Shown: positions 10,791-38,987 of the stretch, in pieces
Position numbering within the stretch: position 1 is the first letter of the stretch
Layout: each line of letters starts with the position of its first letter
Assembly (NCBI GenBank): GCA_964388035.1
Contig: CAYLZE010000002.1
Location: forward strand, 98,141-146,907
Origin: an uncultured archaeon
Lineage (GTDB): Archaea > Asgardarchaeota > Lokiarchaeia > Sigyniarchaeales > SOKP01
Reading direction: 5' to 3'
DNA: 48,767 nucleotides
Position numbers and translations under genes: made by a program
The notes under the pieces: generated by a model
Told to the model about the DNA's origin: nothing
Database searches by the model: none
Seen by the model: the letters and a program-made list of their open reading frames with translations, nothing else

Positions 10791-13436
10791 TTGAAACCAA
10801 AGGGAATCTTGAGTTTAAAAGGAGAAAAGTTAAGATGTGTTGCCATGCCACTTGGAGGTATTGGAACGGGGTCGATCGCTCTGGGAGGAGATGGTCTTTT
10901 AAAACAATGGCAAATCACTAACACCATAAAACATAACGCATTCGTTCCAAATAGTTTTTTTATGATAAGTGGTCAAATGGTAGGCAAGGAGAAATTTAAT
11001 CGCTTTACCAAAGCTCTATTTTGTCCGCACGTCCATGAGAGCCCCAAATTTATACCCGCCAAATCTGTATCAGATCATAAAATTACTGCAGCAATGAAAG
11101 AGATGTTCAAAACTCTCGAAGGAGTAGATGAAATTCAATTCGATGGGGAATATCCTTTAGCTTTTTTGAAATATAAAGACAATAAAATTCCATTAGAAAT
11201 TAATCTTACTGCATTCAATCCATTTATTCCCTTGGACAGTAAAAATTCAGGATTGCCTATAATCTTGTTTCAATTTGACTTAAAGAATGTTTCTGAAGAA
11301 CTTGTAGAATTCACATTAATTGGGAATCTTATGAATTTTATTGGGTGGGATGGTCTAAAAACACTACAAGGCAATGAAAATCCTTTATTTGGAGGAAATA
11401 CCAACATTCTCCGTCAAATTGGAGAATGGAAGGTATTACAGATGAAATCAAAGACCATTTTAAAGGCAGATAAACGATATGGAGATGTGAGCTTGGCAAT
11501 ATACGACGCAAATGCATTGAGCGTGGAAGCATGGGATGATTTACATGATTTTTGGACTAATCTCACGGAAAAAGGAAAATTAGTCGATACTATTAAGGAA
11601 GAGATGAGTCCTTTGGGAAAAACTTGGATGGGCAGTTTAGCGCAAAAATCAGTTCTAAAACCGGGTGAAAGCAACAAAATCACATTTTTAATTGCTTGGA
11701 ATTTTCCAAATCGGGTAGTAGACTGGTCTGATAGCACTCTCATGAACTATGGGCAGCTTCCCGACCTAAAAACGGAATTTTGGATTGGAAATAATTATAA
11801 TAATTGGTTTGGAAGCTCTTTAGATGTTGTAAATTATGTTAATAAAAATTGGGCATATCTGACGAGCAATACTTTTGCTTTTCATCATATCTTTTTCTCA
11901 ACAAATCTTCCCAGAGAAATTTTAACGAGCATCTCAGCAACAACCTCAACCTTGAGGTCTCCCACGTGTTTATGGATCCATGATGGAAGTTTTCATTCTT
12001 TTGAAGGGTGTTGCGGTGCTTCTACATCAAAATCTTTTGGAGGGAGTTGTCCCATGGATTGCACGCATGTTTGGAATTATGCTTTTAGTTTAGCATATTT
12101 TTTCCCTTCCTTGGAAAGAACCATGCGATATACCGAATTTAAGATGCAGCACGAAATGGGTTATTTACCCCATCGCTCGATCCTTCCTTTATATTTACCC
12201 CAATTAGAAATGACCAATGAAATGCCTCCTGCGATCGATGGGATGTTTGGAATGATCTTAAAAATATATAGAGATTATCTCATTACCGGTGATTATGATT
12301 TTCTTAAATTCTCATGGCCAAAAATTGCAGGATTAATGACCTATATTTTTTCATTTATCGATACAAAACAGGATGGAGTAATTTATCATTCTCAGCCAAA
12401 TACTTATGATTGCGAATTGAAAGGGCTGAATACGTTTATTGGAACACTCTATTTAATAACTCTTTTAGTTTGCGAACGAATTGCTCAAAAATTGGATTTA
12501 CCAAATTGGGCTATAAAATGTAGGAAAGCCCATGATGCAGGACGCAAGCTATTGGATAAAGAGTGTTGGAATGGCGAATACTATATCCAGAAATATAACG
12601 AGCAGAAAGTCTCCGAATACCAGTATGGGAGCGGATGCCATTCAGATCAGCTCATGGGACAATGGTGGGCTTTTAATTTGGGATTTGATTATATTCTACC
12701 TCCCGAACATGTTAATAAAGCCATTGAATCAATAGTAAAATATAATTTTAGGGATTCGTTTGAGGGAATTGAACAATTTCGATGTTTCGCATCCCCAACA
12801 GATTCGGGGCTATTAAATTGTACATGGCCAAAGGGTAATATACCAGAAGTTCCCATCAGATACACTAACGAAATTTGGACAGGTATTGAATATGAAGTTT
12901 CCGCTTTATGCTTTTATTCAGGAAGGTTGGAAGAAGGGTTTAAAATCATCCATGCGATCCGAGAACGATACGATGGTTCTCATCGAAATCCTTGGAATGA
13001 AGTCGAATGTGGGGATCATTATGTGAGAGCTATGTCTTCGTGGACCATGTTACGAGCTTTAACCAAGATGGAATATAACGTGGTATTAAAACGATTTAAG
13101 ATTGCGGCAAAAATGACCAAAGAACCCTTTATTGCATTTTTCATTACGGGTACTGCTTGGGGACAAGCCCTTCAATCTTTTTTAAATAACACATTTACAT
13201 TAATCTTAACCATTTCTTTTGGAAAAATAGATATAAATTCCATTATTATAGATGAATTATACGGAATATCTCCTGATAAAGTTTGTCTTAAAATTAAAGA
13301 TTTATTGAAAGGGAAGCAAGAAATACTTGATACTACTCTCTCCACGAGAACTGCAGGGGTTGAAATTATTCCAAAAATGCCGATTAATGTGAAAGAAGGG
13401 TTTGAATTATTAATTGAATTAACCTCCAAAATCTAA
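10791..13436 (+). CDS. GH116 glycoside hydrolase (non-lysosomal glucosylceramidase/GBA2-like)
   Basis: AMPLGGIGTGSI, FNPFIP..SGLP, CTHVWNY, PNTYD, DQLMGQW, EIWTGIEY and NPWNEVECGDHYVRAMSSW motifs. Confidence 0.93.
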   Translation: MKPKGILSLKGEKLRCVAMPLGGIGTGSIALGGDGLLKQWQITNTIKHNAFVPNSFFMISGQMVGKEKFNRFTKALFCPHVHESPKFIPAKSVSDHKITAAMKEMFKTLEGVDEIQFDGEYPLAFLKYKDNKIPLEINLTAFNPFIPLDSKNSGLPIILFQFDLKNVSEELVEFTLIGNLMNFIGWDGLKTLQGNENPLFGGNTNILRQIGEWKVLQMKSKTILKADKRYGDVSLAIYDANALSVEAWDDLHDFWTNLTEKGKLVDTIKEEMSPLGKTWMGSLAQKSVLKPGESNKITFLIAWNFPNRVVDWSDSTLMNYGQLPDLKTEFWIGNNYNNWFGSSLDVVNYVNKNWAYLTSNTFAFHHIFFSTNLPREILTSISATTSTLRSPTCLWIHDGSFHSFEGCCGASTSKSFGGSCPMDCTHVWNYAFSLAYFFPSLERTMRYTEFKMQHEMGYLPHRSILPLYLPQLEMTNEMPPAIDGMFGMILKIYRDYLITGDYDFLKFSWPKIAGLMTYIFSFIDTKQDGVIYHSQPNTYDCELKGLNTFIGTLYLITLLVCERIAQKLDLPNWAIKCRKAHDAGRKLLDKECWNGEYYIQKYNEQKVSEYQYGSGCHSDQLMGQWWAFNLGFDYILPPEHVNKAIESIVKYNFRDSFEGIEQFRCFASPTDSGLLNCTWPKGNIPEVPIRYTNEIWTGIEYEVSALCFYSGRLEEGFKIIHAIRERYDGSHRNPWNEVECGDHYVRAMSSWTMLRALTKMEYNVVLKRFKIAAKMTKEPFIAFFITGTAWGQALQSFLNNTFTLILTISFGKIDINSIIIDELYGISPDKVCLKIKDLLKGKQEILDTTLSTRTAGVEIIPKMPINVKEGFELLIELTSKI

Positions 13437-13519
13437 ATACACCAAATTGAGTTCTAATCTATTAGAAATACAATGGAGCAATACGCTGTTTTTTATTTAA
13501 TTTCTTTTGAAAAGGAAAT
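13024..13519 (+). repeat. Direct repeat copy A (GH116 3' end plus downstream intergenic DNA)
   Basis: Aligns with 14333-14829: about 81% identity over the first ~127 bp and 97/99 over the last 99 bp (manual count). Confidence 0.92.
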
Positions 13520-13534
13520 AAGTGTCGAAGAACT

Positions 13535-13717
13535 GACGGGTTCTCGCACATTGTCTCATAGATAAAATGAAAGGCGCCTACATATCTCTTTTTTTATAAT
13601 TGGCTCGTAACTAATCGGATCTGAAAAAGAAGTTTGAAATTAATCAATTCCCTTTCCAATATTCACTTTTATTGCCACTTGATATCTCTTTTTGATAACT
13701 TCTTCCGCAATTATTTT
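13535..13717 (-). pseudogene. Degenerate internal fragment of the DUF362 gene (copy of ~15595-15781)
   Basis: Shared blocks such as CCAATATTCACTTTTAT and TTTGATAACTTCTTCCGCA, with small indels. Confidence 0.85.
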
Positions 13718-13815
13718 AGGGATTCATAAATAACCAAAAATTCAAGAATTAAACAAATTTAATTTCATCTGTGGTATGGATTAAATATTTATTGAATTGC
13801 TACTTAATAAAATCA

Positions 13816-14043
13816 ATGGATTTTAATTATGATAAGATGGCAGATGCGCTTTACATTCGGTTTTCGGGTGAAAAAGTCTTAAATTCAGATGAAATCGCAA
13901 GCGGAATTATTATCGATTATGGTAAGAAAAATAATATTATCGGTGTCGAAATATTGAATTTTAATAACCGAAACCTTAACCTTAATGACCTTGTACAAAT
14001 GAGTGTGGAAGAATTAATACCGAGACTAGCAAAATGTCAATAA
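13816..14043 (+). CDS. DUF2283 family protein (predicted antitoxin)
   Basis: YDKMADALYIRF...IIIDY...IIGVEIL signature; the ATG at 13816 is the likely start. Confidence 0.88.
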   Translation: MDFNYDKMADALYIRFSGEKVLNSDEIASGIIIDYGKKNNIIGVEILNFNNRNLNLNDLVQMSVEELIPRLAKCQ

Positions 14044-14270
14044 GGTTCACTAAACATTCTTTAGAACGAATGAGGATTAGAGATATTACAAAAGAAGAAA
14101 TTATCGATGTAATCGTTAATCCCGATAAAAAATTAAATGATTCTTCAGGAAATATCATTGTTCATAAATTAAAAAAGAATTATCTCTTACGAGTTTTTTA
14201 TTATAATGAAGAAGGATCTAATGTAGTCATTACTGCATACAAAACATCTAAAATTGATAAATATATATAA
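14034..14270 (+). CDS. DUF4258 family protein (predicted RelE-like toxin)
   Basis: FTKHSLERMRIRDI...LLRVFY...VVITAY; overlaps the DUF2283 gene by 10 nt. Confidence 0.85.
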   Translation: MSIRFTKHSLERMRIRDITKEEIIDVIVNPDKKLNDSSGNIIVHKLKKNYLLRVFYYNEEGSNVVITAYKTSKIDKYI

Positions 14271-14332
14271 CTTTAATTTATTTAAATTTAGGCTCTACTT
14301 CTAAAGAATATTGTGAAACGGTTAGACATTGC

Positions 14333-14829
14333 TGAGAGCAATGTCTTCATAGACCATTTTACAAGCTTTAACCAAAACGGACTATGACGTAGTATTAAAG
14401 TGATTTAAGATTGTAGCAATAACAACTAAAAAACCCTTTTCTGGGTTTTTCGTTACGGGTACTGCTTGGGGACAAGTTCTTCAATCCTTTTTAAATTACA
14501 CATTTATCTTTATCTTAACCGTTTCTTTTGGAGAAGTGGATATAAATTCCTTTATAATAGATGAATTATACGGAATATCTCCTGATAAGGTTTGTCTTAA
14601 AATTAAAAATTTATTGAGTGGGAAGCAAGAAATACTTGATATTACTCTCTTCACGAGAACAGCTGGGGTTGAAATTATCCCAAAAATGCTGATTAATGTG
14701 AAAGAAGGGTTTGAATTATTGGTTGAATTAAACCTCCAAAATCTAAATACACCAAATTGAGTTCTAATCTATTAGAAATACAATGGAGCAATACGCTGTT
14801 GTTTATTTAATTTCTTTTGAAAATGAAAT
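14333..14829 (+). pseudogene. Direct repeat copy B: truncated GH116 3'-end duplicate (includes ORF 14536-14760)
   Basis: Has TGG>TAG and CGA>TGA stops and a 1-nt insertion near the end relative to copy A. Confidence 0.92.
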
Positions 14830-14875
14830 CAATTCGATTTTATGACCAGTGCTCTTAAATAATATATATTGAAGA

Positions 14876-15943
14876 CTAGTTTTCAAAAAATTCTCGATTT
14901 ACCCATGTAAATAAAGATTCCATTCGGGGAAATAACCATATTTGAAAATGATGGGGAAGGAAATATTGCATGTACAGTGCAGATTTCCAAAAGTTTACTT
15001 TATTATAATCCATCGATTCATTTCTTATCTTTTTCAAGATTTCTTCACGCGGCCAACTCGAATCCGGATGCAGCTTATAATCCAGTTTTTTTTCCTTTAA
15101 ATTTATCTTGCAATATTTTATGTATTCAAATGGATATCCCAATAATTCGGATGCAACTTTATCTCCTCTTAGCATGTCTTTGGATACGATCATCCGATTG
15201 AATTCCACGGGATACATAAAATGGGGTCCCACCCCCGTACCCACATTAAAGGTAGCTAATATGTTCAAATCGGGTGTCATTATCCTGGCAGCGGCTGCTA
15301 CCACTTTATCAATCCTGGAATATTTCCGGTGATACTTCGACTTTTTAAATTCTGCAATGGCCCCATACATGTTTTTTTGATTAGCCGTCAAGCCACATTC
15401 CCAATGATGCTTGGGAGGAGCAAAACTGATTATTTTAACTTCGGGTTTAAGTAGAATCTCAGGTAGTTTTAGAGAGACATCAAGATCACGGCACTTCATA
15501 TCAACAGTTGAATATTCGGATAAATTTACGAATTTACAACCGGTCTTTCTACATAGTTCATTATACCCTCGAACATCGAGAAGTTTCTTAGACATGACAC
15601 GTGCCCGCATATTAGCCTCACAAATAAAGGGAGTAGCACTCATCTCTCTTACTTTCTTTATTATTGCTTCACAAATAATGGGATCAGAAAAAGAAGTTGA
15701 AATATAATCAATTCCTCCTCCAATATTCACTTTTATCGCCACTCGATCTCCTGGTTTGATAACTTCTTCCGCATTTATTTTTTCAAATGCTTCTGATACT
15801 TGCCCGTAAAGGCGGTCATTATCCTGAATTTCTTGGATTAACACCAATTTATCCTCTTTCAATACTTCATGAACTTTTTCAATACCCCTTAAATACCCAT
15901 CTTCTTGAAAGATAGAATATCTTTCGGTATCATATTTCATCAT
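14876..15943 (-). CDS. DUF362 family protein (putative Fe-S protein)
   Basis: IKPGDRVAIKVN, PKHH...LTANQKNMYG, GVGP and D.VASELLGY motifs. Confidence 0.8.
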   Translation of the reverse strand: MMKYDTERYSIFQEDGYLRGIEKVHEVLKEDKLVLIQEIQDNDRLYGQVSEAFEKINAEEVIKPGDRVAIKVNIGGGIDYISTSFSDPIICEAIIKKVREMSATPFICEANMRARVMSKKLLDVRGYNELCRKTGCKFVNLSEYSTVDMKCRDLDVSLKLPEILLKPEVKIISFAPPKHHWECGLTANQKNMYGAIAEFKKSKYHRKYSRIDKVVAAAARIMTPDLNILATFNVGTGVGPHFMYPVEFNRMIVSKDMLRGDKVASELLGYPFEYIKYCKINLKEKKLDYKLHPDSSWPREEILKKIRNESMDYNKVNFWKSALYMQYFLPHHFQIWLFPRMESLFTWVNREFFEN

Positions 15944-29439: not shown

Positions 29440-30288
29440 ATGCAAGATGAATCAGATTCTCAGGATAAAATTACAATAGAAAGGAAACCCTTTGTCAGTA
29501 CTCGACATCGGGATGCGGAACCCGATACTTTCGATCCAAACGTACCTAGATTAGGAAGGAGGGAAAGTGAACCGCACTCTGCAGAAATAACTTATTTACA
29601 CGATGTATTAACCACCAATTTTCCCGATGATCGAACCATGTGGGATTTGCATCATTACTTTGAAAAAGAAAGAATGAAAATTGATGTTCAATTTGACATA
29701 TCCTATTTTAAAGGGTTGAAAATACCTTATACTTTATCTTCATATCATGCTGATCAATTTAATAACAAGGTGCCTACCATGGTGATTAATATTCTCTCAA
29801 AAAGTACGTGGAGATCTGATATTGCAGAAAAGATTGACTTTTGCAGATTTTTGGCGATACCTTTATATGTTATTTTCCCTTCATTTCATGTATCGATTGA
29901 TATCTATAAACCTCCCTTTTTCCGTGCTTATATTTTACAATCAGATGGAGCTTACAAGATTCAGGAAGTTCGTAAAGTAGCCATTAACATAGAAGGAGTA
30001 TGGGATTTAGATGCGGCAATCGACGTGTCTGACATCGTTCCTTTTCGATTGGGGTTAAAGGAACGAGATGTCAAACACCAAAAAGAAGAACCTTTATATA
30101 GATTGGTATTAATCGCTCCCAAAAAAAACCAGATCTTATTAACTGAGATTGAGGAAAAGGAGCAATTAATTAGGGAACAATCCCAAAAAATCATGGAACA
30201 ATCCCAAAAAATCACGGAACAATCCCAAAAAATTGATAAACTTGAAGCTGAAAACTTAAAACTGAAAAATCGCCTTGAAGAAAAATAA
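29440..30288 (+). CDS. Uma2-like PD-(D/E)XK nuclease-fold protein with C-terminal coiled coil
   Basis: ESEPH, QFDISYF and P.MVINILSKST...D..EK pattern, followed by a heptad tail. Confidence 0.65.
   Translation: MQDESDSQDKITIERKPFVSTRHRDAEPDTFDPNVPRLGRRESEPHSAEITYLHDVLTTNFPDDRTMWDLHHYFEKERMKIDVQFDISYFKGLKIPYTLSSYHADQFNNKVPTMVINILSKSTWRSDIAEKIDFCRFLAIPLYVIFPSFHVSIDIYKPPFFRAYILQSDGAYKIQEVRKVAINIEGVWDLDAAIDVSDIVPFRLGLKERDVKHQKEEPLYRLVLIAPKKNQILLTEIEEKEQLIREQSQKIMEQSQKITEQSQKIDKLEAENLKLKNRLEEK
30174..30233 (+). repeat. About 3 x 21-bp intragenic tandem repeat GGAACAATCCCAAAAAATCA(T/C), encoding EQSQKI(M/T/D)
   Basis: Read directly from the sequence. Confidence 0.92.
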
Positions 30289-31566: not shown

Positions 31567-32919
31567 CTAACTTTTCTTTTCCCATTCAAAGTCTAGTTGA
31601 ATAAATTTTCTAGCGAAAAAGTAAGCCACTATCAGAATGGCTGAACAAATTGGCCCCCATAAGATGTATCCAATAGAAAAAGCGGAGGATCTTAGTGTAA
31701 TTTGAGGTAATTCTAACACACCGCCCATGATAATTAGCCCTATTGCTTGAAAAATGTTTAAAGGAATACTAGGAAACCCTATATACGTCCCAGCTTTTAG
31801 TTCTCCGGTCACTTTTTCATCATCTTCGGAGATATCGGGTACCATTATGGATTGAAAGATGTACCATCCGGATAAGATCCCTGCTATTCCAAGTAGGAAA
31901 AGAATTCCATAAATTACCAACGGTAAATTCTCAATTAGTCCTAATAACGTTAAGGGGAGAAATATAGCTGCCACTAATAAATCATAGAGAAGGCTTTTCT
32001 TTTTACCGAATTTTCTTATCAATATTCTCCAAATATACAAGAAAAACAGAATGCCCAGAATGAATATGGCGGCGGCGACTATGTATATTGTTTCGCTTAA
32101 TTGTAATACGACTTCCGTGAATAACAAGATTAAAGAGCTTACTTGTGTCCAAGCTAAACTGGCAATGCCAATCATCAAGGTAACCAATAAAAAGTTTTTA
32201 TTTTTTATTACTGTTTTCAATGCTTCCACCATAGTTGAAGTAATTGGATAAGGTGGTTCCGTCGGCATGCAAAATGCAGATAAGTAGAAGAAAAAAACGG
32301 GAAGTATTCCAAATAATATGACCAAATAAAGAAATGTGGGAGGAATATTTGAAGGATTTACTTGAATTTGGTCAATGAAGCGGGTCAAAATTAGCAGGGA
32401 GAAAACAGCCATGGTGGCAGTTCCTGCAAATGAGAAGGTTTGCTCAAATTGGGCTGCCTTTGGCCTATCTACCGATCTAAATTGTTCGGCCATCCAAGCG
32501 CCTTTAACGCTAGTTAAACCATATGCAAAATTAAAGAATTGATATATTATTAATAACCAAGTAAAGATCGCAGTCTTATCGTTTAAGGGCAGAAATAGAG
32601 TGGGTAATAATAGCAGAATAAATGAAATGCCCAATAAAGGACTTAAAATTATCATGTAAGGTTTCCTTCGACCCCATCGGGTATATTTGGCATCACTTAG
32701 CCATCCTAAAAAGAATTGGGAGCCCGCAATCATGAGCTTGCCCATTCCCAGAGCAAACCCCACCATTAATGGTGGAATTTGATACGCAAGAATATATAAT
32801 GTAGCGAGAGCGACATCTGCAAATCCCATCATTACTGATGTGCCGTATTTTGGAATCGTGTAAAATAAAAAGTTCCTCTGCCTATTTGGTGGTCTTTCAA
32901 TCTGAGTTTGTTCGTTCAT
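31567..32919 (-). CDS. MFS transporter, GPH family
   Basis: GWLSDAKYTRWGRRKPY and PDISEDDEKVTGELKAGTY motifs; about 12 TM helices. Confidence 0.9.
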   Translation of the reverse strand: MNEQTQIERPPNRQRNFLFYTIPKYGTSVMMGFADVALATLYILAYQIPPLMVGFALGMGKLMIAGSQFFLGWLSDAKYTRWGRRKPYMIILSPLLGISFILLLLPTLFLPLNDKTAIFTWLLIIYQFFNFAYGLTSVKGAWMAEQFRSVDRPKAAQFEQTFSFAGTATMAVFSLLILTRFIDQIQVNPSNIPPTFLYLVILFGILPVFFFYLSAFCMPTEPPYPITSTMVEALKTVIKNKNFLLVTLMIGIASLAWTQVSSLILLFTEVVLQLSETIYIVAAAIFILGILFFLYIWRILIRKFGKKKSLLYDLLVAAIFLPLTLLGLIENLPLVIYGILFLLGIAGILSGWYIFQSIMVPDISEDDEKVTGELKAGTYIGFPSIPLNIFQAIGLIIMGGVLELPQITLRSSAFSIGYILWGPICSAILIVAYFFARKFIQLDFEWEKKS

Positions 32920-32959
32920 TTTAGATCTTCTTTATTATGTAGCATTTTAAAATAATTCT

Positions 32960-33016
32960 TTAATAAAATTATTGCCTTGATCATTATTTAAATCTTACAT
33001 TTCATAGAAAATTATA
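32960..33016. repeat. 57-bp direct repeat R1; contains a minus-strand TATA-like TTTAAATA, probable MFS promoter
   Basis: 53/57 identical to 33184-33240. Confidence 0.9.
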
Positions 33017-33017
33017 G

Positions 33018-33180
33018 ATAATCCCGGGTTTATCCCGTGGGAAGTTCGACTACAAATTTTCAATCGATCCTTTTCTACTAAAAATCCAAATAGGGGATTA
33101 GGCACGTATAGCATGAAATTTTTAAGCTTATTTTTGAAGGGAGCCGTGTCTTTTACGATTTCTGAAAAGGAAGGAACTAG
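33018..33180 (+). pseudogene. 163-bp copy of the histidine-kinase HATPase region (36381-36543)
   Basis: Ungapped 147/163 identity with a 56-nt perfect core; encodes NPGFIP..V.LQIFNRSFSTKNPNRGLGTYSMKFLS. Confidence 0.95.
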
Positions 33181-33183
33181 TTC

Positions 33184-33240
33184 TTAATAAAATAATTGCC
33201 TTGATCATTAATTAAATCTTACTTTTCATGGAAAATTATA
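33184..33240. repeat. 57-bp direct repeat R2
   Basis: 53/57 identical to 32960-33016. Confidence 0.9.
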
Positions 33241-33252
33241 AGTAAAATTGTA

Positions 33253-34617
33253 TTATTTCATTACAAGTAAAAATCCATCGTTCGTGGTAATGATAAGGGA
33301 TTGGTGTGGTCCTATTATCAATGAGGAGATAGGATGACCAACTTCAATTTCTCTTAATTTCACGCCCTTGGCATTGAAAACATGTACTTTTCCGTCAAGA
33401 GTTCCTAAATATGCAAAATCATTTCCATCTATTATGGGATTCGCGGTAACTGGGGCACTCAATTCAATAGCTTCATGATTCAATGTGTTTTTTGTACGGA
33501 TAGTATTCGTATCAAGTTTTAAAAGCCATTTTGAGGGCTCATGACCTCTATCTTCAAGTCTTATCCAAATGATATTATTTTTGCCTATTGCGGGATGACC
33601 AATGGGGTTCAAGCCAAAAAGCTTACCATATTTTCCTATAGAATCTTTATCGCTTAACCTATCCCAAGTCCAAATAGAGTGATCAAGCATTGAATCTGCT
33701 AATTTAAAGTGTTTTTTATACGTAAGATTCCTTCCACCATCTCTCATGCCAAGATCTTTGGGAAGATTCATGGCTAAAATATCTTCAAGCTTGAAGGCAA
33801 TTAATTGTCCAAATCTCCCGCCCATATAGTAAATGATATTCTCATGATCTACACATATAGAAGTCGGATGGAGGCATCCAGAAACATAATAATCCGGTAA
33901 AAAGAACCCTAATTTTTCGCCTAAATAATTAAAAAACACGCATTCGTAATAAAAATCTTCATTAATTTCGTCAGGAGGGTCCCAGGTGTATGCTTCGGGA
34001 TGAGTAATGTTAGCGCGATAAGATACGTAAAGATTTCCCTTCTCATCAATTGCCGCAGGAGATACTTGCACGTTTCGCCCGATTCTCCATTCTTTTGTTA
34101 AGCGAGGATCATCTTTTCCATAGGAATGACCATCGGGGGAGAGAACATATAATCCCGCCCAATCGATGCTCCAAGCAGGCACATAAATGATTCCGTGGAG
34201 CCCAATATTTGGCGGAGAGGGAAGCCCATCAATTAGTTTCTCCCATTTTAAATCTCCATTAGCTTCCCAACACTGTATTCTCGCAGTCGTTCCCAGGATT
34301 AAACTCCCATCTTGTCGTATGACTGGAGGGGTCATCCCATAAAAAGGTTCTCCACTTGTCATAAATATTCCCTTTTTCCATTTTTGCCGCCCGTTAAAAT
34401 TAAGAGCGAGTAATTCGTTTGAGTCAAGAGCTAAATATATCGAATCATCAATACCAATTATGGGTTCCCATGAATGAGATCCTACCTTCATTCTCCATTG
34501 AATTTCATTCCCTCTTGGACCATAAAGCATACTTTGTCCCGTTGATCCCCTATTACCACGGAATCTTGGCCATGATGTCGACGCAAGAATGAATTCTTTA
34601 TTATCTAATGCAGCCAT
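33253..34617 (-). CDS. PQQ-like/BamB-type beta-propeller repeat protein
   Basis: WPRFRGN..STG motif, repeated P.I..DG.IY...L.A....G..KW blades, YLGTLDGKVH. Confidence 0.75.
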   Translation of the reverse strand: MAALDNKEFILASTSWPRFRGNRGSTGQSMLYGPRGNEIQWRMKVGSHSWEPIIGIDDSIYLALDSNELLALNFNGRQKWKKGIFMTSGEPFYGMTPPVIRQDGSLILGTTARIQCWEANGDLKWEKLIDGLPSPPNIGLHGIIYVPAWSIDWAGLYVLSPDGHSYGKDDPRLTKEWRIGRNVQVSPAAIDEKGNLYVSYRANITHPEAYTWDPPDEINEDFYYECVFFNYLGEKLGFFLPDYYVSGCLHPTSICVDHENIIYYMGGRFGQLIAFKLEDILAMNLPKDLGMRDGGRNLTYKKHFKLADSMLDHSIWTWDRLSDKDSIGKYGKLFGLNPIGHPAIGKNNIIWIRLEDRGHEPSKWLLKLDTNTIRTKNTLNHEAIELSAPVTANPIIDGNDFAYLGTLDGKVHVFNAKGVKLREIEVGHPISSLIIGPHQSLIITTNDGFLLVMK

Positions 34618-34870
34618 GCTATTTTTTTTTATTTTCTTCCGTTAAAATAGCTTTTCTTATACATTTCATTATAACTAAATATAGAGGGATATTTAAGTAT
34701 TAAAAGGTGAGTTTTTCTGATACCATGCTCTTATTATTAGGATGTAATCTAACGTGATTTTTTACCTTTTCTTATACCTCTATTTGATTTAATTAATGGG
34801 AGATTTTATCCAAAAAAAATGGTATAAAATGACAAAATTCATTATTATTACATAATCAATTATTTCAATT

Positions 34871-35266
34871 GTGCCTTCAGTAAAAAAATAAAAACTAAAA
34901 GGAAAAAGCCAAGAATATAAAAAAGCAATATCGAATGGAATTCATGTTTCTTTGGTCAAAACGCTCAAAATTCCTGATGATGATAGAAAACAACATCTTT
35001 ATGAGCTGGATTAATCTAATTTTGAAATCCATCCCAAAAGATCAAATAATTACATGTTAATAGTGCTTACCATGTTTAAAGGGAGGACGGTTGAAACGAA
35101 AAAGAAATTATATACCGAAATCATCGCTATTTTGAAGAATTCACCCAGGATTGATGGAAATGATAATATTATTATGGTTATCCATGAACTAGAATTGGAA
35201 AATTGGGACATAAGAGGAGGAAAATTTCCCAATAAAGCAACCTTAGAATATAAAATTGACATATAA
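34871..35266 (+). pseudogene. Tautomerase (4-OT/MSAD-like) pseudogene
   Basis: One frame from a GTG with catalytic Pro1: MPSVKK*KLKGKSQEYKKAI..GIH..LV..LKIPDDDR.Q.LYELD*...MFKGRT.E.KKKLY...ENW.IRGG; two in-frame TAA. Confidence 0.85.
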
Positions 35267-35437
35267 CGCGAAAGGGACTTATTTACATTTTAATAGGTCA
35301 TCTAACATCAATATTATACTTCGTTTTAGAAGTATTAATAAATAATAACTATATGATCTAATTCGATTATCAAATATTATGTTTTAATTTTTTATAGAAA
35401 GTTTATTTTATATCATGATTAAATTAGGTTTTCCGTC

Positions 35438-36583
35438 ATGATAAATAAAATTCAAAAGGATCTAGATTTAAATCTGAAAGAGAGAGCGAGTGACGAAGAA
35501 ATACAACGACAAGTTCTACTGTTTCAAAATAATGAGGTTTTGAATGAATTTTTGGGAAAAATCCCCATGGTATTTCTCATCGTGAATAAATATAGACAAA
35601 TAGTGTATCTTAACGAAGGAGCATTAGAATTAACAAATATGGATGACGTGGCTTCTGCAGTTGGAAAAAGACCCGGAGAATTAATAGGCTGCATTCATTC
35701 TACGGAAAGAAGTACTGGATGTGGAACAGTTGAAGCGTGTACTTATTGTGGGGCATTGGATGCCGTATTAGAAAGTCAAAAAGGTAATCCTACAACAAGA
35801 GAATGTCAATTGATCCTCAATACAAATAGTGCTTTAAACCTGCGTATACATGCTGCTTCTCTTTCAATTAACGGAGAGAAATTCACTGCTATCACCCTCC
35901 AAGACATCCAACATGAAAAATGGAGATTGTTTTTAGAACAAATATTTTTTCATGATCTTCTTAATTCTGTATCCACTTTGAAAGGAATTTTTGATTTATT
36001 GGAAAATTACAAAGAAAAGTTAAACGAAAACGATCTGATAAAAATGGCTGGCGATGTTATCCAAGGTCTCATCGAAGAAATTCAATCTCAACATCTCCTA
36101 ATTAATGCAGAAAATAATCGCTTGAAAATTAGCATTGACACGTTCAATACCATGAATTTACTGGAAGAAATATATAAAACGTATAAAGAACATGATTTAG
36201 TTAAAGGAAAATCCTTTCAACTTGATTCAAATTCTGCGTCCATTACTATTACTTCGGATAGAACGCTGTTGAAGAGAATCTTAATCAACATGATCAAAAA
36301 TGCTCTGGAAGCCACTCCTGAAAACGGGAAAGTACTCTTTGGATGTAAACAAAAAAAGGCTCAAGTTCAATTTTGGGTGCATAATCCCGGCTTCATCCCA
36401 CGGGATGTTCAATTACAAATTTTCAACCGATCCTTTTCTACTAAAAATCCAAATAGGGGATTAGGCACGTATAGCATGAAATTCTTAAGCTCCTTTTTAA
36501 AGGGAGCCGTTTCTTTTACGACTTCTGAAGAGGAGGGAACTAGATTCACAGCTGAATTTCCAATTTCTCTTAATGAAGATTAA
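35438..36583 (+). CDS. Soluble sensor histidine kinase with Cys-rich PAS-like input domain
   Basis: H-box FFHDLLN, N-box NMIKNALEA, FSTK...RGLG; GCIHS...GCG...C..CG cluster. Confidence 0.9.
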   Translation: MINKIQKDLDLNLKERASDEEIQRQVLLFQNNEVLNEFLGKIPMVFLIVNKYRQIVYLNEGALELTNMDDVASAVGKRPGELIGCIHSTERSTGCGTVEACTYCGALDAVLESQKGNPTTRECQLILNTNSALNLRIHAASLSINGEKFTAITLQDIQHEKWRLFLEQIFFHDLLNSVSTLKGIFDLLENYKEKLNENDLIKMAGDVIQGLIEEIQSQHLLINAENNRLKISIDTFNTMNLLEEIYKTYKEHDLVKGKSFQLDSNSASITITSDRTLLKRILINMIKNALEATPENGKVLFGCKQKKAQVQFWVHNPGFIPRDVQLQIFNRSFSTKNPNRGLGTYSMKFLSSFLKGAVSFTTSEEEGTRFTAEFPISLNED

Positions 36584-36896
36584 TTACAAGGTAATATTTA
36601 TTCGAACAACACTAATTTTAGAATATTTTTAAAAAAAGAATTCTTCATTTTTGTCACATTTAGGTTTTTATTATAGCGTGGCAATTAGAGAAATTTTTAG
36701 ATGAATTGATTAATTGCGATAATTTGCTCAATTTTTTCTTCTCATAATAAGAGTTTATTTAATATTAAATTCGATATCTTGCCAGTTTAGTTGGAAATAA
36801 ATTGCAAAATTACTCATCATGATCAATAGCAAGCAGCAAAATGAATCAAAAAAGGAATCCAATCGAGTTTCAGAATCAAGGAAAGGTCAATCATAT

Positions 36897-36920
36897 CGAT
36901 AGGGATGGATAATCCTATCG
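36897..36920. promoter_or_regulatory. Inverted repeat CGATAGG-N10-CCTATCG upstream of aor
   Basis: 7-bp perfect arms about 30 nt upstream of an AT-rich TATA-like region. Confidence 0.4.
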
Positions 36921-37043
36921 CATGCAAGTGGAATATCGATTAAAACTTATTAATATAAGAATTAATCTAATAAATATCAAACAATTTTAATTAGTATAAA
37001 GATATTATTTAATCAAAAACAAATCAAAGTTGAACGTGATAAG

Positions 37044-38987
37044 ATGAGTAAATCTAAAGAAATTACAATTCCAGACCAGATAAAAGGTTATGCTCAAACC
37101 AGACTCGACGTGGATTTAACAGATGGGAAAATTTCAAAATCCGAATTATCGAAAGAATTCTGTAGGGATTGGATTGGGGGATATGGATTTGGTGCAAAGA
37201 TTTTATGGGATGAATTAGAACCGGGCGTGGATCCCTTAGGTCCCGATAACATTTTCGTTTATGCCCATGGTCCCTTTCCTACCACTATATTACCTACTAG
37301 CTCAAAATATGGTGTTTTTGCAAAATCTCCATTGACTGGTTTTTTTGGAATGGCTATATCATCTGGAAGCGTAGGGGCACAGGCACGGCGCGCGGGAGTA
37401 AACATGATCGTTTTCAAGGGGAAAGCACCCGATCCTGTATACTTGGTGGTAGATGATGATGATTATTATTTAGTTCCTTGTGAAAAAACCGTATGGGGAA
37501 AGGGTTGTTGGGAAACGGAAGAACAATTAAGGGAAGAATTTCAAGATCAGAGATTAGCCGTCATGTCAATTGGACCTGCGGGAGAGAGAATGAGCAGGAT
37601 GGCATGCATCACTAATGATAGGAATCGACAAGCAGGTCGCACGGGAATGGGCGCAGTCATGGGTTCTAAGAATTTAAAGGCCATTTGCTTTAGAGGAACA
37701 AAAGGAATCCAAGTAGCGTATCCTGCCGAATTTTATAAAATGGCTAAAAAATTAATTAAGGTGGCGAATGGTCCGGCAACCGCAAAATATCGCGATTTAG
37801 GAACCCCTTCGGGATTAACCAGTTACAATAAACTTGGAATGATGCCCACATTCAACTATAGAGAGGGAACGTGGGAAAAGATCACGGAAGGTCCCATTTC
37901 AGGGGAGATTCTCAATGAGGATTGGGTAGTAAAGAAAGTAGCTTGTTCCCAATGTAGTATTGGATGTGATCATCTTGCAAGAGTACCTAAAAGCCATCCT
38001 GATTATCCCAATTTAGTGGCAAGTGTTGATATAGAATTAGTTTATGGATTTGGAACGGCATGTGGTAATTGGGACTGGCCTACCATATTTAAATGTATTA
38101 CGCTATGCGATGATTTAGGTATTGATGCGATATCGGGAGGAGTTACTGCAGCAATGGCTTGCGAGTTATATGAAGAAGGAATCATCACTAAAGAGGATTT
38201 AGGATATGAATTGCCCTTCGGTTCTACTCATAATCTCGTAAAGTTCACGGAAGAAATGATTATGAACAAGGGTTTTGTGGGAAAGATTTTCGGAGATGGC
38301 ACTAAACAGGCGGGAATAAGGTTGGAGGAAATGGGGAGAAAAAATGCGGGTTATTATGGAATGCAAATAAAAGGATTGGAAATGCCCGCTTTCGATCTTC
38401 ATGGCATGACTTCCTTTTCCGTTGGAGAAAGCGTTTCCATTAGAGGTGCTTGTCACTTAAGAAATGGAGCTTATGGATTAGATGCTAAAGGCACCTTTGA
38501 TCGCTTTGGATACGATAAACCCGTTGAACGAGGAAAGGCTATAATTGAACTGGAAGATGTTTATGCTATCATTGATTCGTATATTATTTGTAAATTTACC
38601 CGAGGAATTTATGAAACGGATGCTGAAATGGCAAAGGTATATGAATTGGTTACTGGTATTCCAGCCACGGATGAATCAATCAAAAAGAGAGGAGCTGCAA
38701 TCCTGAACCTTTCCAAATGCTTTAATATTCGGGAAGGATGGACGCGAGCGGATGATCATCCTCCGGAACGTTTTTTCAAGCAAGCCCATACCAAGGGCCC
38801 TGCCAAGGGATTTACTTTAGATGAGAAAGGATTTCAAACCATATTAAGTGGTTATTATGAAGCCAGAGGATGGGATAAAGAAACCGGTATTCCTACAGAT
38901 GAAACTCTTAAGGATTTAGGATTGGATTTTGTTATCGGAAATCTCGAACCAAAAGCCCCAAAAACCAAGAAAGGAGGAAAAAAGTAA
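37044..38987 (+). CDS. aor: Aldehyde:ferredoxin oxidoreductase (tungstopterin AOR family)
   Basis: KSPLTG, IGPAGE, GRTGMGAVMGSKNLKA, CSQCSIGC, DDLGID, RGACH and YYEARGWD motifs. Confidence 0.95.
   Translation: MSKSKEITIPDQIKGYAQTRLDVDLTDGKISKSELSKEFCRDWIGGYGFGAKILWDELEPGVDPLGPDNIFVYAHGPFPTTILPTSSKYGVFAKSPLTGFFGMAISSGSVGAQARRAGVNMIVFKGKAPDPVYLVVDDDDYYLVPCEKTVWGKGCWETEEQLREEFQDQRLAVMSIGPAGERMSRMACITNDRNRQAGRTGMGAVMGSKNLKAICFRGTKGIQVAYPAEFYKMAKKLIKVANGPATAKYRDLGTPSGLTSYNKLGMMPTFNYREGTWEKITEGPISGEILNEDWVVKKVACSQCSIGCDHLARVPKSHPDYPNLVASVDIELVYGFGTACGNWDWPTIFKCITLCDDLGIDAISGGVTAAMACELYEEGIITKEDLGYELPFGSTHNLVKFTEEMIMNKGFVGKIFGDGTKQAGIRLEEMGRKNAGYYGMQIKGLEMPAFDLHGMTSFSVGESVSIRGACHLRNGAYGLDAKGTFDRFGYDKPVERGKAIIELEDVYAIIDSYIICKFTRGIYETDAEMAKVYELVTGIPATDESIKKRGAAILNLSKCFNIREGWTRADDHPPERFFKQAHTKGPAKGFTLDEKGFQTILSGYYEARGWDKETGIPTDETLKDLGLDFVIGNLEPKAPKTKKGGKK

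What the first reader, a model, noticed from the sequence alone, without database searches (positions are those of the whole stretch)
32960..33240. Promoter-like direct repeats sandwiching a captured histidine-kinase gene fragment: candidate trans-antisense RNA cassette
Seen: repeat (57 bp), insert (163 bp), repeat (57 bp, 53/57 identical). The insert is an ungapped 147/163 copy of the ATP-lid/G-box region of the kinase gene 3.4 kb downstream (36381-36543), in the same orientation, with a 56-nt perfect core. On the minus strand each repeat carries an A-rich BRE-like stretch and a TATA-like box (TTTAAATA in R1, TTTAATTA in R2), and R1 sits where the promoter of the minus-strand MFS gene is expected. 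Inference: R2 would initiate near 33185, at the edge of the insert, giving an RNA antisense to the kinase mRNA, either as an sRNA or as a long MFS leader. That would couple transporter induction to kinase silencing. The alternative is a neutral duplication-deletion scar.
Basis: partly seen in the sequence, partly recalled or inferred. Interest (0 to 1): 0.85.

Follow-up and report, generated by a model that had tools for sequence, protein, structure and literature searches.

The report
Duplication scar holding kinase gene fragment
A salt-marsh Asgard archaeon really does carry a 163-base copy of a nearby kinase gene between two 57-base repeats, but it is most likely one of about 26 similar leftovers of local DNA duplication and deletion in this genome, not a selected silencing RNA.

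Summary
Contigs re-assembled from four salt-marsh runs bridge the junctions, so it is not a chimera. The genome is a Promethearchaeota (Asgard) MAG. Syntenic relatives have a single spacer upstream of the MFS gene, and no kinase or insert. The simplest history: a ~3.4-kb unit (spacer–propeller gene–kinase) was doubled, in place or from a related donor, and the left copy was deleted down to a stub; both joints show 3–4-nt microhomology. The genome holds 26 such gene-fragment copies: 11 sense, 5 antisense to local transcription, several with the same A-B…A…B layout. Long perfect runs are common among them (7/26 at p<0.05). All six amino-acid changes fall on the insert, only 3/16 mismatches keep G·U pairing, and R2's TATA-like box misses the consensus. 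By-product antisense RNA is possible and RNase III is encoded (26/31 genomes), but nothing shows selection; expression is untested. The scan noted such scars before in this and other Asgard genomes.

The parts
31567..32919 (-). MFS (GPH-type sugar:cation symporter-like) transporter gene, 450 aa
   Evidence: Pfam MFS_2 E 8e-31; 76-77% orthologues at syntenic AFOR loci L159, L166, L167
32946..32951 (-). TTTAAA box 32-27 nt upstream of the MFS start, outside the repeat: alternative (leaderless-type) MFS promoter candidate
   Evidence: TTTAAA peaks modestly at -30..-26 from start codons genome-wide (94 vs about 60 per bin); inference
32960..33016 (.). R1, left copy of the 57-bp MFS-upstream spacer; holds TTTAAATA on the minus strand
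33008..33021 (.). Junction J1 (deletion joint R|kinase stub), shared ATA(A) microhomology, one extra G at 33017
33018..33180 (+). Non-coding stub of the kinase gene (ATP-lid/G-box region, no start, no H-box), 147/163 identical; perfect core 33065-33120
33173..33190 (.). Junction J2 (duplication joint kinase|R), shared (A)TTC microhomology between the kinase continuation and the DNA left of R1
33184..33240 (.). R2, right copy of the spacer, 12 nt after the stop of the propeller gene; TTTAATTA on the minus strand
33253..34617 (-). PQQ-like beta-propeller gene, 454 aa; lineage-specific cargo, not found in 134 family genomes with this query; 60% homologue next to MFS in L159
34862..35266 (+). Tautomerase-family pseudogene (in-frame TAA at 35012-35014)
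   Evidence: Tautomerase_2 E 1.6e-12
35438..36583 (+). Orphan PAS-type sensor histidine kinase gene, 381 aa; source of the stub is 36381-36543
   Evidence: Pfam HATPase_c; homologues named sensor histidine kinase in Promethearchaeota
37044..38987 (+). Aldehyde ferredoxin oxidoreductase gene; directly divergent from MFS in relatives L166 and L167

Best explanation
The cassette is an unselected rearrangement scar. Shown: in relatives the MFS gene has one upstream spacer and faces away from AFOR; the propeller gene, a tautomerase and the kinase were added between them in this lineage. Inferred: a collinear unit of about 3.4 kb, from the spacer R through the propeller gene to near the kinase 3' end, came to lie twice in tandem. 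This was either an in-place duplication or the additive uptake of a related strain's allele (single crossover or homology-facilitated illegitimate recombination); it made joint J2. A deletion of about 3.1 kb then removed the redundant propeller, tautomerase and 5' kinase from the left copy (joint J1) and left R1-stub-R2. The stub has since drifted. The 56-nt core is a gene-conversion or crossover tract, or chance. Some minus-strand read-through or R2-driven RNA may cross the stub (my estimate about 1 in 3), but as a by-product.
For: Both joints carry 3-4-nt microhomology, and the pieces are collinear with the intact unit. Outgroups have one spacer and no kinase or stub: L159 has propeller-MFS 136 bp apart; L166 and L167 have AFOR|MFS directly divergent. 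26 non-coding copies of nearby gene pieces occur in this genome in direct orientation; only 3 local inverted repeats were found. The same A-B...A...B layout occurs at window 13024-15781, C4:75220-78619, C37:13083-15741 and C41:188-5201, with microhomology at the A|B joints of C4 and C37. Orientation to local transcription: 11 sense, 5 antisense, 6 convergent, 3 divergent, 1 at a contig end. The codon-position pattern 3:3:10 matches the pooled 140:120:321. All six amino-acid differences have the kinase residue as the commoner state in 38 homologues, and four insert residues (W, R, L, I) are absent from the commonest residues listed. Only 3 of 16 mismatches are G·U-compatible. Core p=0.013 alone, but 7/26 fragments have run p<0.05 and 4/26 have p<=0.013. 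Pooled dS/dN is about 3.2, above the ~1.8 expected for pure in-place decay (p about 1e-5 to 1e-8, with caveats), which favours copies that diverged while still coding, i.e. donor alleles or long-lived duplicates.
Against: No relative closer than about 77% (MFS) or 62% (kinase) protein identity was found, so decay versus conservation of the stub cannot be read directly. The stub has no indel or stop, and the core covers a third of it. R1 and R2 differ by only 7%, against 21% at the stub's synonymous sites, which could mean both copies are constrained. R2 keeps the outgroup-like base in the TATA-like box (TTTATTTA in L159). An in-place duplication cannot be told from donor uptake at this locus alone (dS/dN 4.7, p 0.07-0.10).
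Confidence: 0.72

Rival explanations
1. One-step templated insertion. A replication fork at the end of R switched to the kinase gene 3.4 kb ahead, copied 163 nt, and switched back to the start of R, adding 224 bp with a 57-bp target duplication. Also unselected.
For: It gives the same end product with the same two microhomology joints and needs only one event.
Against: The sister scars keep several collinear stubs or cargo genes between the copies (window 13024-15781, C41, C4, C37), which points to long duplications trimmed later. The synonymous excess suggests a coding phase for the copies.
Confidence: 0.13
2. The scar has been co-opted. R2 still fires, and the RNA (a separate sRNA or a ~265-nt MFS leader) pairs in trans with the kinase mRNA over 163 nt; RNase III cuts the duplex, so MFS induction lowers kinase output, and this is under selection.
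For: The geometry allows it: a TATA-like box at 33216-33209 would start RNA at about 33185. R resembles MFS-upstream DNA of orthologues, weakly. The predicted duplex is very stable (-234 kcal/mol), as any 90% complement would be. RNase III with the E-x-LGD and D-x-x-E motifs is encoded here and in 26/31 relatives. Core run p=0.013.
Against: There is no antisense bias among 26 fragments, and long runs are common among them. 13/16 mismatches break pairing, and only 3/12 transitions are wobble-compatible. R2 fails the strict box-A pattern, and such boxes are common by chance. The kinase has no MFS, propeller or stub neighbour in 23 homologous loci. No Piwi domain was found in this 96.7%-complete MAG. 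No Rfam family matches.
Confidence: 0.07
3. Assembly chimera of two strains.
For: The MAG has 7.3% contamination. One low-depth contig (X3) joins the insert to the kinase 3' end through the shared core.
Against: Independently built contigs bridge R1|insert (X1, X4) and insert|R2|propeller (X1, X2, X3) with no other letters. Insert-specific 31-mers cover both halves of the core. The X3 joint lies wholly in the 56 shared letters, where the neighbouring contigs break off at depth about 3.
Confidence: 0.02
4. A DGR template repeat, CRISPR-like repeat-spacer-repeat or mobile-element footprint.
For: Superficial repeat-insert-repeat shape; a non-coding copy of a gene's 3' part.
Against: The mismatches are not adenine-specific (insert bases G6, T6, A3, C1; 12/16 transitions). 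The repeat has only two copies in the genome and no exact 27-nt match in metagenome contigs. The 163-nt insert and 57-nt repeat are far from CRISPR sizes. None of the five flanking genes annotated (CAAX, MFS, propeller, kinase, AFOR) is a reverse transcriptase, cas or integrase gene.
Confidence: 0.01

Closest known systems
Tandem duplication join points trimmed by later deletions (prokaryotic gene duplication-amplification; review PMC13732712; remodelling by deletion recalled from Reams & Roth 2015, not readable here)
   Same: Direct, collinear copies a few kb apart; short-homology joints; the redundant copy reduced to a stub.
   Different: Here an old (7-10% diverged), fixed remnant in an uncultured Asgard archaeon rather than a transient laboratory amplification; a donor origin is not excluded.
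Homology-facilitated illegitimate recombination leaving orphaned gene ends (Vibrio T6SS and Rhs loci, PMC5361080)
   Same: Stranded 3' piece of a gene beside newer cargo genes; copies diverged with a synonymous excess; the site between AFOR and MFS has taken up different cargo in different lineages.
   Different: No donor was identified. The stub is internal (it lacks the last ~13 codons), and two novel joints need a deletion as well.
De novo sRNAs in rearrangement-born intergenic regions (PMC4350180) and archaeal antisense sRNAs (PMC5892119; sRNA162, PMC3510493)
   Same: A rearrangement created a new spacer in which a promoter could drive an RNA complementary to an mRNA.
   Different: Those RNAs were detected by RNA-seq or Northern blot; here there is no expression evidence and no conservation, and the complement is a long gene copy rather than a short seed or a cis-overlap.
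Pseudogene-derived trans-antisense RNA/siRNA of eukaryotes (PMC2708354) and Asgard rnc-Argonaute clusters (bioRxiv 10.1101/2023.12.14.571608)
   Same: A gene fragment read antisense would give long dsRNA; RNase III is present.
   Different: No Piwi domain was found in this MAG; rnc lies on another contig (C13); no small-RNA data.

Membership tests
Duplication/recombination scar (tandem duplication or donor integration, then deletion) | Direct, collinear copies of an intact nearby unit | tested here: met
   R then kinase piece, same order and strand as R2...kinase
Duplication/recombination scar (tandem duplication or donor integration, then deletion) | Novel joints with short homology | tested here: met
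   ATA(A) at J1, (A)TTC at J2; short, so weak in 67% AT DNA
Duplication/recombination scar (tandem duplication or donor integration, then deletion) | Single-copy ancestral state in outgroups | tested here: met
   L159, L166, L167
Duplication/recombination scar (tandem duplication or donor integration, then deletion) | Loss of coding constraint on the stub | tested here: met
   six amino-acid changes, all polarised to the insert; no start codon or H-box
HFIR / donor-allele integration | One copy is closer to another strain's allele than to the resident copy | not testable with these tools
   no close relative found; synonymous excess is indirect
Trans-acting antisense sRNA | Transcribed from the minus strand with a defined start | not testable with these tools
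   needs stranded RNA or TSS data
Trans-acting antisense sRNA | Promoter clearly above background | tested here: inconclusive
   TTTAWWWA in 23% of random 57-mers; R2 fails TTTAWAWA; weak likeness to MFS-upstream DNA
Trans-acting antisense sRNA | Pairing to the target preserved by selection | tested here: not met
   3/16 mismatches wobble-compatible; core run not exceptional among 26 scars
Trans-acting antisense sRNA | Conserved with its target in relatives | tested here: inconclusive
   not seen in 23 kinase loci or 40 relatives, but these are distant
Diversity-generating retroelement | Template-to-variable differences at adenines; reverse transcriptase nearby | tested here: not met
CRISPR-like array | 23-50-bp repeats with 26-50-bp spacers, further copies or cas genes | tested here: not met
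   57-bp repeat, 163-bp insert, two copies only, no Rfam hit

The most novel reading that the evidence does not exclude
In Promethearchaeota, which unusually for archaea nearly all encode RNase III, duplication scars that put a copied promoter in front of a reversed-sense gene fragment give long trans-antisense RNAs that RNase III acts on. This cassette would be a young, selected regulator linking MFS induction to kinase silencing, a prokaryotic counterpart of pseudogene-derived silencing RNA in the closest relatives of eukaryotes.
Probability: 0.07. Interest if true: 0.72.

Novelty: new member of a known kind. Interest (0 to 1): 0.17.

Why it matters
As a scar it is ordinary, but it adds a well-resolved case to a genome-wide habit of this Asgard MAG (about one gene-fragment scar per 200 kb, with a pooled synonymous excess) that hints at frequent integrase-free gene uptake from relatives. 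[quoted passage not shown]

Tried and rejected
No RNA holder was listed among public runs, so expression was not tested; this is no evidence either way. An 18-nt repeat pattern in genome contigs gave only scattered chance matches in unrelated taxa; a 27-nt pattern gave none in metagenome contigs. DNA search of 40 relatives found only MFS and kinase homologues, no cassette. The same-genus genome G001 has no match to the kinase or propeller gene and only a 62% MFS paralogue. A metagenome scan with the propeller alignment gave only 42-44% homologues. A positional promoter model from 2066 upstream regions was too flat (80% AT) to score R1 or R2. A BRE+TATA pattern fitting both repeats has 1.3% background but was fitted after the fact, so it was not used. 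Rfam gave nothing near a gathering score. The X3 contig that skips 3363 bp through the core was judged a low-depth misjoin, not a deletion allele. Reams & Roth 2015 was not held. DGR, CRISPR and chimera readings were rejected (see rivals).

Full report
Verdict. The structure is real and exactly as described, but the evidence points to a duplication-and-deletion scar, one of about 26 in this genome. A selected antisense cassette is not excluded but has no positive support.

Observation. R1 (32960-33016) and R2 (33184-33240) match at 53/57. The insert 33018-33180 matches kinase bases 36381-36543 at 147/163 without gaps, same strand, with a 56-nt perfect run at 33065-33120. Neither part has a third copy in the 5.47-Mb genome. 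The flanking genes are an MFS transporter (31567-32919, minus), a PQQ-like beta-propeller gene (33253-34617, minus), a tautomerase pseudogene, an orphan sensor kinase (35438-36583, plus) and AFOR. The closest kinase relatives are in Promethearchaeota and the DNA occurs in salt-marsh runs.

Is it an artefact? No. Logan contigs of X1 and X4 bridge R1|insert, and those of X1, X2 and X3 bridge insert|R2|propeller, with no other letters in the cassette. Insert-specific words cover both halves of the core, so the core identity is real. One X3 contig jumps from insert to kinase inside the 56 shared letters at depth about 3, best read as a misjoin. These runs may be the MAG's own campaign and no piece spans the whole 3.6 kb, so they validate the joints, not conservation.

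Ancestral state. Two relatives have AFOR and a 76% MFS orthologue directly divergent across one ~400-bp spacer (L166, L167). A third has the propeller gene inserted there, 136 bp from MFS, with no kinase and no stub (L159). So the AFOR|MFS gap takes up cargo, and the kinase is a newcomer. R2 aligns weakly with the single MFS-upstream region of L167 and L159 (top 0.8% and 2.4% of 2066 background regions; 12 comparisons; R1 not significant). R is thus probably ordinary MFS-upstream DNA that got doubled. None of 23 homologous kinase loci has a second kinase piece, or an MFS or propeller neighbour, although these are only 37-62% identical.

Joints. At the right joint the kinase continues ...AACTAG-ATTC and the DNA left of R1 ends ...AATA-ATTC; the observed joint reads AACTAG-TTC-TTAATA. 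At the left joint R continues TTATA-AG and the kinase piece begins ATAATC; observed TTATA-G-ATAATC. This is what a doubling of the ~3.4-kb unit from R to near the kinase end, followed by a ~3.1-kb deletion in the left copy, would leave (inference). The microhomologies are short and weak on their own.

The genome does this often. Self-comparison finds 26 non-coding copies of gene pieces within 15 kb of the gene in direct orientation, against 3 local inverted repeats. The same A-B...A...B layout occurs in this window (13024-15781, with a DUF2283/DUF4258 pair as cargo), at C4:75220-78619, C37:13083-15741 and C41:188-5201; C4 and C37 have A abutting B across microhomology just as here. Relative to flanking genes the fragments lie sense in 11 cases, antisense in 5, between convergent genes in 6, divergent in 3: no antisense bias.

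Is the stub under selection for pairing? All six amino-acid differences have the kinase residue as the commoner state in 38 homologues; W, R, L and I of the insert are absent from the commonest residues listed. So the stub drifts free of coding constraint. Only 3 of 16 mismatches (3 of 12 transitions) would give G·U pairs with the mRNA; the rest break pairing. The 56-nt run has p=0.013 alone, but 7 of 26 fragments have p<0.05 and 4 have p<=0.013 (binomial p about 2e-4 and 3e-4). Patchy identity is a general property of these scars, as gene conversion or crossover tracts would give, and needs no special function.

In place or from a donor? Pure in-place decay predicts dS/dN near 1.8. The pooled value is about 3.2 (p about 1e-5 to 1e-8), this locus 4.7 (p 0.07-0.10). 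Missed short ORFs and alignment bias can inflate this, but it suggests many copies diverged while still coding, as donor alleles would. That fits homology-facilitated illegitimate recombination as described for orphaned gene ends (PMC5361080), a lead I took from earlier notes of this scan. At this locus the two routes cannot be separated.

The promoter claim. TTTAWWWA occurs on a given strand in 23% of random intergenic 57-mers; R1 passes the stricter TTTAWAWA (13% background) and R2 does not. A second candidate, TTTAAA at 32951-32946, lies outside the repeat at the distance where this hexamer peaks upstream of start codons. On the other side, the L159 outgroup has TTTATTTA at the aligned place and a similar distance from the MFS start, so R2 may hold the ancestral box. 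If R2 fires, or if the propeller gene reads through its U-rich end, RNA antisense to the kinase mRNA would be made. RNase III is encoded here (C13:45365-45724) and in 26 of 31 genomes of the order; no Piwi domain was found. So an effector is conceivable, and Asgard rnc genes have been proposed to process dsRNA (bioRxiv 10.1101/2023.12.14.571608). Nothing here shows expression or benefit.

Comparison and scores. It works like a trimmed duplication join point or an HFIR-type orphan (PMC13732712, PMC5361080) and meets the testable features of such scars. It fails the pairing-preservation test for a trans-antisense sRNA, and is not a DGR or CRISPR unit. New sRNAs do arise in rearrangement-born spacers (PMC4350180), so co-option stays open at about 7%. 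Scar by duplication and deletion 0.72, one-step templated insertion 0.13, selected antisense 0.07, chimera 0.02. Novelty: new member of a known kind. Interest 0.17.

Noticed in passing
G000:C13:45365-45724 (L158:1201-1923, minus): Bacterial-type RNase III (241 aa, E-x-LGD and D-x-x-E motifs) is present here and in 26 of 31 genomes across the order, although most archaea lack it; no Piwi domain was found in this MAG.
   Followed up: partly
window 13024-15781: Second A-B...A...B scar: GH116 3' end duplicated (89.5% over 497 bp, with a 98% 99-bp stretch), a DUF362 fragment, and a DUF2283/DUF4258 toxin-antitoxin-like pair as cargo.
   Followed up: partly
window 34862-35266: Tautomerase-family pseudogene with an in-frame TAA, between the propeller gene and the kinase.
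   Followed up: partly
window 32920-37043 vs L159, L166, L167: The divergent AFOR|MFS spacer is a cargo hot spot: empty in two relatives, propeller gene in one, propeller plus tautomerase plus kinase here. The ~100 bp upstream of AFOR is 72-79% conserved in all three.
   Followed up: partly
genome-wide: 26 local gene-fragment copies, pooled dS/dN about 3.2, with more long perfect runs than chance; suggests frequent donor-allele integration or gene conversion.
   Followed up: partly
G000 C8, C41, C66, C76, C109, C117: Perfect 55-bp repeats 155-157 bp apart around runs of N: scaffolding artefacts (k=55 overlaps), not biology.
   Followed up: no
window 36587-36696: Runs X3 and X4 carry a slightly different haplotype behind the kinase (two substitutions and a 3-base insertion); otherwise the population is nearly clonal over 6 kb.
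   Followed up: no
window 30163-30233: Three 21-bp-period repeats inside the end of the ORF 29440-30288, which has no Pfam match.
   Followed up: no
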